In this document: positions 6,001 through 9,000 of the stretch, piece by piece
Numbering within the stretch: position 1 is the stretch's first letter
Layout of the letters: every line of letters starts with the position of its first letter
Origin: a virus
Taxonomy: Duplodnaviria; Heunggongvirae; Uroviricota; Caudoviricetes
Reading direction: 5' to 3' (one strand)
Virus record (IMG/VR): IMGVR_UViG_2671181056_000012
Location: 1 to 17,566 of that record
DNA: 17,566 nucleotides
Program-made: the position numbers

Positions 6001-9000
6001 TCTACGGGTTCTTCGACAACACGGTTTAAGCTGTCTTTCATTGCAATGAGTTTATCCCATGACATTTTTGAAAGGACGTAGCGAGAAGCAGCATAGCTAT
6101 AAACCAGACAGTCGAGAGCCTCGTTTCGGGTACTACCTGGATTTTTCACCCAACGCACGCCAGTAGTAGTACGCTTGATGGATTCACTCAAAAGCTGATC
6201 GAGATAATCATCAGGAACGGTTTCTGATATTTCTAAGCCGATGTGAGGATTGTCTTTCAGGTTTCTAACCAGCATTTCACGAACAGCAGATTTCCCAACG
6301 TTAACACCCAACATAAGCAATTCATGACCACCTGTGCGGGTAGGTTTAACCGGAATCACTGGAGCATTACCGGATGAACTACCTTTGATCGCGTGTAGGT
6401 TCTTCCACTTGCCACAAATACGGTATCCGGCTTGAGTGAATCGACCGTTCGATGTATCAAGGAAGCTGGCGAGCATTGGCACACGTTCACCATTAACGTT
6501 ATAGAATTTGGTTTTCTTGAAGTTAACCAGACGATCCCAAACAGGTGATTCATATCGTTCACAGTTATGATCGTAAAAGCTGCGGTGATCCAGAATGTAA
6601 ACCTTATCTTTCGCTACACCTAAGATGGTAGATTCTGCGCGGTCCAATTGCTGGTCGATTCCTGAACACAAGAAAATCACGTCATCAGGGATATTCTCGA
6701 TAGAAACATCTGTTTTGAGTTGTTCCAGTTCATTTGCTTCTACTGCCGTGTCCTGATCGTCGTATACCTTGCCTAACACGGTGTTATAAAATGATTGTAA
6801 ATCAAAGGATTGCCACGCATGACTAAAATCAACCACACAAGCGCGGATCGTGCTGAAAGGTGAATACAGACGGCTAATCCAGAATCCTGCTACTTCACTT
6901 TCACGGGTTGCTCTCCACTCGCCTTGCGCTACTGCCCTGATTCGTTCCCCTTCTGTCCATGCGTTCTTACAATGGGGGCAAATATAACGAGCGGTATCAG
7001 GATCGGGTAAATTCTTACCATCGATGTTACGCCATTCAAACTGTACGTTTTCCCACTCGATCACCTGGTGTCTACCGCAATGAGGACACGGAACAAAAAA
7101 CATACGCATATCACTTGATAACCATTGCTGGTTAATGCTTCCGAGCTTACTGGTCGGGGTACTGGATACGACTAATCGACCTTCATCGCCAAAGGTAGTT
7201 AAACGGTTAGCAGCCAGCGCCACCGGATCACCTTCTTCTGAGGCTGTAGCAGCATCGATTTCGTCAAGCAATCCAACCTTTGCGGTCTTACCACGTAGGG
7301 TTGATGGACTGGTAAGCGATACCATGTACAGGAAGTGATTCGTTTTTAGCTGTAGCTGGTTATTGTTGTTAACCGCATTGCGATCATTCTTGTCTGTAAC
7401 CACGTCTTTTAATGCATCACATGCTTCGATGGACGGTCGGATCTTACCCGCGAGATATTGAGACATTTCTTTAGCGGTTGATTGTCCGATAATCATATTG
7501 CATGGATCGTTAGCCATCTGGTTAAACAGGATACCGTTTAGGATGGTAGTTTTTCCGATCTGCGCACTGGTCATCAGTACATACTTTTTCTTATTCTCAA
7601 GGAAAGGAGCATCAATCATGCCTTTCTGGAATGACAGCAATTTAACTTTATCCCCCGCTTGAGGACCATCTACCAGCACCATATTAGCTTCGCACCATTC
7701 AGAAGGAAGGAGCTTAGGCGGTGGAGTGATATATTTTGCGGCATTTTTAAGAATCTTTTTTAATTTTGCCTTATTTGAAATCAGTTTCATGTAATTACCC
7801 TCATTACGAAATATGAAGGTATTTATTAAATTGTTGATATTTTGATAAATATGGGTATTAATTAAAGGGGGTTGTATGCTAATTAATCAGCAACAAAGAG
7901 ATGAATTAGAATTAGCCTTGTCTTGTACCGATCATGAATATCGTTTGCCAGTTAAGCATAAGCATTTAAAAACCGACTACACTACATCTGGCTTTAGTCG
8001 TGAGGAAGCGAAAGAGATTTTAATAGAGTTTTACCGTGATAATGGCTATAGAGACGTTCACAACTTCTTTAAGAAGCATAGAACATCACATACAGAGTTC
8101 CAGAGAGTCCGAGATTGGTTTGATTTTGATATCAAGCGTTATTATCGAGTGGATGACGGTCCGATCTATCGGTTGCAGTGGACACCGATCCGAGAAGTGT
8201 TGAAACAGAAGAGATTGAATCACGCAATTACACGCTATCGTAACGAGGCTTTCAAGAAAGGCTATGGTGATACAAGGGAACTATTCGTTGAACTCGCTAA
8301 CGTGCGTTATAGCCACTATTACAACGATCCTAAAGGGTTCTTTGAAGTGCTTCGCAAGGTTGATATAAGTCGGGGTACATACTATTCACGGTTGAAGAAG
8401 TACGGGATTAAGGCAGAGTTCTTTATGAGTATTGACGATGGAGAACTTTTTCCGATAAAATGTAAGTCCTCTAAATAAAGGTGAACATTCACTTTAATTT
8501 GGAGAAATGACTATGACTACTAAAGCTACTCGCGGTCGTCCTTGCCGTTTTAACGCTGAACAGATGGCTGATATTGCCTACGCTTACTATACAGCGGATC
8601 GTGGTAAGGAAGCGAAAGAACAGATTCTTAGTGAACATGGGATCTCAATCGCCCAATTCTATAAGAATATGAAGAAGTTAGACATTAAATTCTATGTTCA
8701 GATCGGTGATGGTCAGATCGTAGAAGCAACAGGTTTTTGAGTTTTGATTCTCTTTGCCACTCTTCGGAGTGGCTTTTTTATATCCGCTCAAAAACTGAGC
8801 ACATCTATAGATGGCGCGAAAATTCGCGTGATGTAGATACAAAAAAGCCCCTGAAATTCAGGGGCAAAAATTATCACAGTCCGAAGTGTTCCAGTGATCC
8901 AACATTCTGGCGGAGACGTTCAGCCGCTTTGTTTTGAATCAGAATAGTGTTGTTCGGCTTAGGAAGATTCAGAGTTGCTTTTTGTTCTTCTTCCAGAATA

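What the first reader, a model, noticed from the sequence alone, without database searches (positions are those of the whole stretch)
8847..8872. The array motif recurs inside a bidirectional terminator hairpin
The terminator GCCCCTGAAATTCAGGGGC plus its A-tail contains a perfect TTCAGGGGCAAAAAT at 8857-8871. Either the array arose by repeated duplication of a terminator half-site, or the motif is a protein-binding site that also occurs at the Rha 3' end. This links two otherwise separate regions.
Basis: seen in the sequence. Interest (0 to 1): 0.4.

Follow-up and report, generated by a model that had tools for sequence, protein, structure and literature searches.

The report
Terminator hairpin shares phage array motif
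The terminator that ends a prophage's Rha operon carries the same 17 bases as a nearby array of protein-binding repeats, but related prophages inherit the two features independently, so the shared sequence is a historical relic or at most an optional extra binding site.

Summary
TTCAGGGGCAAAAAT(TA) at 8857-8873 is identical to array unit 2 (11392-11408), and chance cannot explain it.

The hairpin 8847-8865 is an ordinary intrinsic terminator for the minus-strand Rha operon. It is not bidirectional: on the plus strand it is followed by an A-run, and the plus-strand genes have their own terminator at 8756-8773.

The window is an uncharacterised E. coli/Salmonella prophage inserted in ycdX. Its array (11378-11568) consists of about 9 direct units plus one inverted unit. 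Across 24 relatives plus the window, the array type co-varies perfectly with the N-terminal ~170 residues of an orphan 313-aa protein (12380-13321). Sister phages carry different arrays (TAGTGTAGGTTT, ACGGGGA) with different N-domains. I read this as an iteron-like site/binder specificity module, most likely an origin or a regulatory array.

The motif-bearing terminator assorts independently of the array:
- IMG/VR loci: G-array phages have terminator classes A7/B2/C6; non-G phages have A6/B3/C1.
- Complete E. coli genomes: both 16, array only 17, terminator only 13, neither at least 13.

Either feature therefore works without the other. The shared 17-20-mer most likely reflects sequence exchange or an ancestral linkage.

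The parts
8847..8865 (-). Stem-loop of the intrinsic terminator of the Rha operon (class A hairpin GCCCCTGAA-T-TTCAGGGGC, 8 bp stem, 3-nt loop)
   Evidence: Terminator scan. The RNA fold on the minus strand gives -17.3 kcal/mol, z = -4.6. Relatives carry other hairpins (classes B and C) at the same position.
8841..8846 (-). U-tract (TTTTTT on the minus strand) immediately 3' of the stem. It is present on this strand only.
8857..8873 (+). 17-nt stretch identical to array unit 2 (11392-11408). It comprises the right arm TTCAGGGGC, then AAAAA, then TTA, the second in-frame stop codon of Rha.
   Evidence: The flank TAATAATTTTT is shared with class B terminators, which lack the motif.
8874..9698 (-). 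Rha-family regulator/antirepressor gene (274 aa), last gene of the minus-strand operon 10695->8874
   Evidence: Pfam PF09669 at 3.6e-12 and PHROG anti-repressor families. Translation.
8756..8779 (+). Separate intrinsic terminator (GCCACTCTTCGGAGTGGC + TTTTTT) for the convergent plus-strand genes 7876-8478 and 8507-8740
11378..11568 (+). Array of about 9 direct units TTTCAGGGGCAAAAAT, with start-to-start spacings of 13, 21, 21, 13, 30, 22, 42 and 13 bp. No gene is annotated here in most genomes.
   Evidence: Units are conserved while spacers diverge, and copy number changes by whole units in relatives.
11321..11335 (-). One inverted unit (AGGGGCAAAAACGGG on the minus strand). A 43-bp stretch of about 29% G+C, nearly invariant in relatives, separates it from the direct array.
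   Evidence: An equivalent inverted unit is present in the Salmonella relatives.
11606..11663 (+). Two overlapping near-consensus sigma-70 promoters (11/12 and 12/12 matches, both with TG) directed at the HTH and 313-aa genes
12085..12267 (+). 60-aa helix-turn-helix protein. It does not co-vary with array type.
12380..13321 (+). 313-aa orphan protein with an N-terminal alpha/beta domain (~1-170), a coiled coil (~182-236) and an acidic disordered tail. It is the inferred array-binding protein.
   Evidence: Array type matches N-domain type in the window and all 24 relatives that cover both sites. L143 has the same N-domain and array but a different C-terminus. AF2 model. No family or fold match.

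Best explanation
The hairpin at 8847-8865 is an ordinary, one-directional Rho-independent terminator. It ends the minus-strand operon of the 150-aa gene, the 110-aa gene and Rha.

The array at 11378-11568 is a set of iteron-like binding sites. Their cognate protein is inferred to be the N-terminal domain of the 313-aa protein encoded about 800 bp downstream. Site type and N-domain type swap together as a specificity module among otherwise near-identical prophages. The module most likely works as a replication origin with its initiator, on the model of lambda O and its ori. A less likely role is an autoregulatory or immunity array.

The 17-20-nt identity between the terminator's right arm plus stop-codon flank and array unit 2 is real and too long for chance, but it is not a working link today. 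It is most likely a relic, either of a short-homology exchange or conversion between the array and the Rha 3' end in this highly mosaic family, or of an ancestral genome that carried both. The perfect palindrome could have been completed later by templated fold-back copying.

Shown:
- Terminator anatomy.
- Co-variation of array type with N-domain type.
- Independent assortment of terminator class and array type.

Inferred:
- That the 313-aa protein binds the array.
- The origin function.
- The relic scenario.
For: Terminator:
- An 8-bp stem with 6 G-C pairs and a T6 tail on the minus strand, 8 nt after the Rha stop codon.
- Relatives have three interchangeable hairpin classes at this position.
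- The identical stem is a recurrent terminator in at least 118 unrelated genomes, and 83 of those have the expected A-run and/or T-run flanks.

Array and binder:
- 15 G-type, 7 T-type, 2 C-type and 1 other locus each pair a specific array with a specific N-domain. The HTH gene, promoter type and protein C-terminus vary independently.
- Salmonella proteins 62-69% identical keep TTTCAGGGGCAAAAAT while the spacers are rewritten.
- A 45-50% identical protein goes with the core AGGGGCAAAAAT.

Independence:
- IMG/VR loci: G-type A7/B2/C6; non-G A6/B3/C1; Fisher p = 0.69.
- Complete E. coli genomes: 16/17/13/at least 13, odds ratio 0.94.
- The UTME-12 prophage has the array and no other copy of the motif.
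- 14EC017 has the exact terminator 17-mer with a T-type array.

Not chance.
Against: - No binding, replication or termination experiment exists.
- There is no DnaA box in the region.
- Independent assortment shows dispensability, not absence of binding where both features coexist.
- In L137, L142 and L149 the right arm TTTCAGGGGCAAAA is kept while the left arm has decayed to GCCCC. This could mean a sequence-level constraint on the motif itself.
- The 'neither' count in E. coli is a lower bound, taken from a megablast family count.
Confidence: 0.6

Rival explanations
1. The terminator copy is a genuine distal binding site for the array-binding protein in those phages that carry both. It could act as a loop anchor, as a second cis site (as in P4 ori/crr or SPP1 oriL/oriR), or as a roadblock at the end of the Rha operon (as with the L5 'stoperators').
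For: - The 17-20-nt identity cannot be chance.
- The terminator copy has the same orientation as the array units.
- The right arm plus flank is retained where the left arm has decayed.
- T-type modules also have extra inverted T units 1.1 and 2.1 kb from their array, against 0.05 expected.
Against: - There is no enrichment of class A terminators in G-type phages, with odds ratio about 0.6-1.3 in two datasets.
- About half of G-type phages lack the terminator copy.
- Class A terminators are equally common next to T- and C-type arrays.
- Only one distal copy exists.
- The T-type distal units lie in codons for a conserved C-terminal peptide.
Confidence: 0.2
2. The array arose by repeated duplication of a terminator half-site (stem arm plus A-run), and the binding protein adapted to it afterwards.
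For: - The unit equals the terminator arm plus flank.
- Unit copy number changes readily by whole units.
Against: - Sister phages carry unrelated unit motifs (TAGTGTAGGTTT, ACGGGGA) at the same position, none resembling any Rha terminator class.
- The more distant P0124-type array keeps only AGGGGCAAAAAT, without the TTTC stem extension.
- The A-run in the unit corresponds to the non-functional 5' flank of the terminator, not to its U-tract.
Confidence: 0.1
3. Coincidence. A common G+C-rich terminator stem next to an A/T-rich stop-codon flank happens to spell the array unit.
For: - The stem is a convergently recurring terminator, with at least 118 instances against about 9 expected.
- The AAAAATTA flank pre-exists in class B terminators and includes a tandem stop codon.
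Against: - 0 of 118 instances elsewhere carry GGGGCAAAA.
- Outside this family the 15-mer never lies in a hairpin.
- By my own rough estimate the joint probability is about 1e-5 or less per genome. It combines a 9-nt arm match, given a GGGGC stem, with an A5T flank match.
Confidence: 0.05

Closest known systems
Canonical Rho-independent (intrinsic) terminators at convergent gene ends
   Same: A G+C-rich perfect stem, a short loop and a 3' U-tract, placed directly after a stop codon. The identical stem is used as a terminator in many unrelated bacteria.
   Different: A T-run lies on both sides on the transcribed strand, which gives A-runs on both sides on the plus strand. The hairpin therefore lacks the A-tract/T-tract symmetry of true bidirectional terminators. 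Its 5' flank plus one arm duplicates an iteron-like unit.
Lambda-family O initiator and ori iterons (established knowledge: the N-terminal domain of O binds the iterons and co-varies with them among lambdoid phages, and the C-terminal domain pairs with P)
   Same: - Direct repeats at about 21-22-bp spacing.
- Site type co-varies with the N-terminal domain only.
- The C-terminal part swaps independently.
- Several specificity types occur among near-identical phages.
   Different: - The array lies outside and upstream of the gene.
- There are about 10 units instead of 4.
- The protein has no detectable similarity to O or to any Rep family.
- Replication function is untested.
Phage P4 ori/crr and SPP1 oriL/oriR (the same initiator-binding repeat at two distant loci; recalled from the literature, not tested here)
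   Same: One motif is present both in a main array and at a site kilobases away.
   Different: In those systems the second site is required and co-inherited. Here it is a single unit embedded in a terminator and it assorts independently of the array.
Mycobacteriophage L5 gp71 'stoperators' (asymmetric repressor sites in intergenic regions that block elongation; recalled, not tested here)
   Same: An asymmetric site at the end of an operon, in a fixed orientation.
   Different: L5 has about 30 dispersed sites that co-vary with the repressor. Here there is one extra copy and no co-variation.
Plasmid iteron/Rep and ParR-parC or omega-type repeat arrays upstream of their own operon promoter
   Same: An array of about 10 direct repeats lies immediately upstream of the promoter of the operon that encodes the inferred binder.
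   Different: There is no winged-helix Rep fold and no ribbon-helix-helix fold, and no partition NTPase gene is adjacent. The element is an integrated prophage with a serine integrase.

Membership tests
Intrinsic (Rho-independent) terminator | Stable G+C-rich stem-loop in the transcript | tested here: met
   8 bp with 6 G-C pairs and a 3-nt loop; -17.3 kcal/mol, z = -4.6.
Intrinsic (Rho-independent) terminator | U-tract immediately 3' of the stem on the transcribed strand | tested here: met
   TTTTTT at 8846-8841 on the minus strand.
Intrinsic (Rho-independent) terminator | Position just downstream of the last gene of an operon, with function conserved in relatives | tested here: met
   The stem starts 8 nt after the Rha stop codon. 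Classes B and C replace it at the same position in relatives.
Intrinsic (Rho-independent) terminator | Actual transcript 3' ends at the U-tract | not testable with these tools
   Needs Term-seq or 3' RACE.
Bidirectional intrinsic terminator | A-tract 5' and T-tract 3' of the stem, so that both strands read stem + U-tract | tested here: not met
   The plus strand reads AAAAAA-stem-AAAAATTATC. The plus-strand operon has its own terminator at 8756-8779. Elsewhere 32 of 118 copies of the same stem do have A/T symmetry.
Iteron-type replication origin with cognate initiator | Multiple direct repeats of about 16-22 bp, spaced near multiples of the helical repeat | tested here: met
   About 9 units of 16 nt, with spacings of 13, 21, 21, 13, 30, 22, 42 and 13 bp.
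Iteron-type replication origin with cognate initiator | Specificity pairing between repeats and an adjacent protein | tested here: met
   Array type matches N-domain type in the window and all 24 relatives that cover both sites. The pairing holds through swaps of promoter, HTH gene and protein C-terminus. This rests on co-variation only, and binding is untested.
Iteron-type replication origin with cognate initiator | Adjacent A+T-rich unwinding region and host-factor (DnaA) boxes | tested here: inconclusive
   A conserved 43-bp stretch of about 29% G+C lies between the inverted unit and the array. No DnaA box lies in 10700-12050; the nearest 1-mismatch box is at 12059.
Iteron-type replication origin with cognate initiator | Initiator homologous to a known Rep/O/helicase-loader family | tested here: not met
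Iteron-type replication origin with cognate initiator | Supports autonomous or induced replication | not testable with these tools
   Needs an ori-cloning assay or marker-frequency sequencing after induction.
Dispersed repressor sites (L5-type stoperators / P1 C1 operators) | Many copies dispersed through the genome that co-vary with the repressor | tested here: not met
   At most one copy lies outside the array. A complete 38-kb prophage has none, and there is no co-variation.
ParR/parC- or omega-type centromere | Adjacent partition NTPase gene and a ribbon-helix-helix binder | tested here: not met
   No NTPase gene is in the module. The AF2 N-domain is a mixed alpha/beta fold, not ribbon-helix-helix.

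The most novel reading that the evidence does not exclude
In phages that carry both features, the unit embedded in the Rha terminator is a working distal site for the orphan array-binding protein. The terminator would then double as a loop anchor, a second origin element or a protein roadblock. The 313-aa family would be a new fold of sequence-specific DNA-binding initiator or regulator whose specificity modules shuffle among ycdX-integrating prophages of E. coli and Salmonella.
Probability: 0.15. Interest if true: 0.5.

Novelty: new member of a known kind. Interest (0 to 1): 0.25.

Why it matters
For the finding itself, very little changes. The hairpin is a standard terminator, and the shared motif is not needed by either feature.

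The context is more useful. It defines a clean natural specificity-swap series of at least four repeat motifs paired with four N-domains. These sit in a common but unstudied prophage family that uses a serine integrase, inserts in ycdX, and occurs in about 1% of complete E. coli genomes and also in Salmonella.

The inferred binder belongs to a very small orphan family, with 12 representatives among 1.84 billion proteins and no recognisable fold. The same phage has no identified replication initiator or repressor. The series gives a direct experimental handle on how a new DNA-binding domain reads its site, and on where this phage's origin or immunity determinant lies.

Tried and rejected
- Close DNA or protein relatives among isolated phages: none. 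Megablast of 8000-13000 and tblastn of the 313-aa protein gave no match, and the best TerL match is 43% identical.
- Rfam scan of the whole window at E up to 1: only a chance-level STnc100 hit on the plus-strand terminator. The large non-coding region matches no known RNA family.
- DnaA boxes: no more than chance.
- Literature search for the motif and for ycdX prophages: nothing relevant.
- The idea that the hairpin is family-specific and therefore derived from the array was rejected. The identical stem occurs as a terminator in many phyla. Only the combination with the A-run flank is family-specific.
- TerS, the HTH protein or Rha as the array binder were rejected. All are conserved across array types, or vary without tracking them.
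- An RNA-level antisense link between array transcripts and the Rha 3' end was considered and set aside. There is no good promoter reading into the array, and independent assortment counts against it in the same way.
- Not done: a search for deletion variants formed by recombination between the terminator copy and the array.

Full report
**1. Observation**

The plus strand at 8841-8873 reads AAAAAA-GCCCCTGAAATTCAGGGGC-AAAAATTA. The 15-mer TTCAGGGGCAAAAAT is exact at 8857-8871 and at four array positions (11392, 11434, 11477, 11499). With up to 3 mismatches the window has 10 matches against 0.82 expected, and no shuffle of 200 reaches 10. The identity to array unit 2 extends to 17 nt (8857-8873 = 11392-11408). 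It extends to 20 nt in sister genomes whose loop is TTT instead of AAT.

**2. What the hairpin is**

The Rha-family gene (8874-9698, minus strand; Pfam PF09669) ends with TGA-TAA. The stem starts 8 nt later and is followed on the minus strand by TTTTTT. The RNA fold gives -17.3 kcal/mol, z = -4.6. On the plus strand the stem is followed by AAAAATTATC, so there is no U-tract. The convergent plus-strand genes (7876-8478, 8507-8740) have their own terminator at 8756-8773 followed by T6. The hairpin is therefore a one-directional terminator, not a bidirectional one.

The identical 19-nt palindrome occurs in at least 118 unrelated bacterial genomes. About 9 would be expected in 596 Gb. In 83 of the 118 it carries terminator-type flanks, and 32 have the true A-tract/T-tract symmetry. 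It is thus a convergently recurring terminator stem.

**3. Genomic context**

The window is a prophage. It encodes:
- a lambda-type TerL, a portal and a protease-capsid fusion;
- an IS3-family insertion at 14366-15978 that is absent from all relatives and splits a TerS-like gene.

The host is E. coli. In complete genomes the element is about 38 kb, is inserted in ycdX, carries a large serine integrase at the far end, and encodes a UvsW-like helicase. No recognisable replication initiator or repressor is present. Salmonella has syntenic relatives at the same site. No isolated phage is close.

**4. The array**

Between the divergent operons lies about 1.3 kb without genes. At 11378-11568 about 9 direct units TTTCAGGGGCAAAAAT occur with spacings of 13, 21, 21, 13, 30, 22, 42 and 13 bp. 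One inverted unit lies at 11321-11335, beyond a conserved A+T-rich 43-bp stretch. Two near-consensus sigma-70 promoters (11606-11663) follow and point at a 60-aa HTH gene and a 313-aa gene.

**5. Comparative test of the array**

Twenty-seven IMG/VR loci were retrieved through the neighbouring 150-aa gene. Twenty-four of them, plus the window, cover both the array and the downstream gene. They fall into four types:

| Array type | Unit motif | Loci | Downstream protein |
|---|---|---|---|
| G | TTTCAGGGGCAAAAAT | 15 | 313-319 aa |
| T | TAGTGTAGGTTT | 7 | 328-339 aa |
| C | ACGGGGA | 2 | 333-337 aa |
| other | (L142) | 1 | 371 aa |

Array type matches the type of the N-terminal ~170 residues of the downstream protein in every case. 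Three other elements do not track array type:
- the HTH gene;
- the promoter block, since L143, L144 and L146 switch sequence immediately after the last G unit;
- the protein's C-terminus, since L143 has the G N-domain with a different tail.

Salmonella proteins 62-69% identical to the window's keep the same 16-nt unit while spacers and flanks are rewritten. A protein 45-50% identical goes with units that keep only AGGGGCAAAAAT. Copy number changes by whole units.

This pattern is the signature of a binding-site/binder specificity module. Binding itself is inferred, not shown.

**6. Comparative test of the link**

The Rha terminator comes in three classes:

| Class | Hairpin | Loci |
|---|---|---|
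| A | the motif hairpin | 14 (one with a shorter A-run), plus 2 decayed variants |
| B | AGCCTCGCCTAGTGCGGGGCT | 5 |
| C | GCCCGGCGCATAATTGCGCTGGGC | 7 |

Classes A and B share the flank TAATAATTTTT. The AAAAATTA part of the 17-mer is therefore a stop-codon flank that exists without the motif.

Cross-tabulating terminator class against array type gives G-type A7/B2/C6 and non-G A6/B3/C1, Fisher p = 0.69.

An independent set of complete E. coli genomes gives the same answer:
- 33 genomes have the G array and 29 have the class A terminator.
- Both in one prophage: 16.
- Array only: 17.
- Terminator only: 13.
- Neither: at least 13.
- Odds ratio 0.94.

Two individual genomes make the point directly. 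The complete UTME-12 prophage has the array and no other copy of the motif. Strain 14EC017 has the exact 17-mer terminator next to a T-type array. Among the Salmonella G-type relatives, one has a decayed class A hairpin and two have class B-like hairpins.

**7. Why the identity still needs explaining**

Chance fails on two counts. Outside this family, none of about 100 occurrences of the 15-mer lies in a hairpin. None of 118 copies of the same stem elsewhere is followed by AAAA.

The likeliest account is historical. This family is a fine-scale mosaic, and the terminator sits at a junction where the sequence on its far side differs between almost all relatives. A short-homology exchange using AAAAATTA could have placed an array unit at the Rha stop codon, or an ancestral genome could have carried both features. 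Templated fold-back copying could then have completed the palindrome.

The decayed variants (GCCCC-ATAT/GTAT-TTCAGGGGCAAAA in L137, L142 and L149) keep the right arm. That fits linkage of the right arm to Rha. It is also what sequence-level selection on the motif would produce, so I keep the distal-binding-site reading at about 0.2.

T-type modules also have extra inverted units 1.1 and 2.1 kb from their array. Those units lie in codons for a conserved C-terminal peptide, so they are weak support.

**8. Mechanism of the array**

The origin/initiator model is my preferred reading, at roughly 45% of the probability. It is favoured by:
- the 21-22-bp spacings;
- an inverted unit beyond a conserved A+T-rich stretch;
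- the N-domain/C-domain modularity, which parallels lambda O;
- promoters next to the array;
- the lack of any other initiator candidate in the phage.

A regulatory or immunity array is the main alternative, at about 30%. Against the origin model, there is no DnaA box and no Rep-like fold.

**9. Verdict**

- 'Bidirectional' is wrong.
- 'Protein-binding motif' is supported for the array.
- The proposed functional link to the terminator is not supported.
- The finding itself is of low interest. The site/binder module around it is a modestly interesting new member of a known kind.

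Noticed in passing
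window 14366-15978: An IS3-family element (orfA 14384-14911, orfB 14947-15942) is absent from every relative. It splits a phrog_57 TerS-like gene that is an intact 183-aa ORF in strain UTME-12, so this prophage copy is probably defective for packaging.
   Followed up: partly
window 11570-11625 and 13353-13364: Two or three units of the T-type motif (TAGTGTAGGTTT, TGTAGGTTTG) lie between the G array and the promoters. A related TAGGTTAGGTTT lies just past the module's right boundary. In sister phages this motif forms the whole array. These units may be relics of module exchange, or sites for a conserved protein.
   Followed up: partly
window 10770-11310: The rest of the 1.3-kb non-coding region is packed with other repeats. 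There are four copies of TCTAGAATCATCTAGTAAC (10958-11183), a 37-nt imperfect inverted repeat (10770-10806 / 10906-10942), and several G+C hairpins with GAAG/GAA/TTCG loops. There is no Rfam match.
   Followed up: no
window 11663-12085: A roughly 420-nt leader lies between the consensus promoters and the HTH gene. It contains two AGCA-N5-TGCT palindromes (within 11792-11823 and 11865-11896) that are conserved across all array types. In relatives the -35 region overlaps a TTGACA-NN-TGTCAA palindrome, which suggests an operator for a conserved regulator.
   Followed up: no
window 11291-11301: A conserved TGTTATATAAT could be an extended -10 promoter reading rightwards into the array. The promoter scan did not call it because the -35 is poor.
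   Followed up: no
L126, L128, L143 versus window 11412-11520: Array copy number varies by clean whole-unit deletions of 3, 1 and 4 units respectively, as expected from recombination between direct repeats.
   Followed up: yes
L127/L137 9034-10158, L142 9515-10606, L129 9052-9294: Non-G modules carry a second ORF after the binder gene. Many module proteins end in -AA or -VA (VRRAA, VLKAA, LDFAA, LRLVA, LRIVA). From memory this resembles ssrA-like ClpXP degrons. I did not test this.
   Followed up: no
window 997-1087: ARAGORN calls a 91-nt tRNA-Gln on the plus strand, inside the minus-strand ORF 852-1280. Given its length and position it is probably a false positive.
   Followed up: no
L147/L148 (E. 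coli UTME-12), L149-L153 (Salmonella and others): The prophage family occupies the same ycdX (PHP-domain phosphatase) site next to ghrA in both E. coli and Salmonella. It integrates with a 559-aa serine recombinase.
   Followed up: partly
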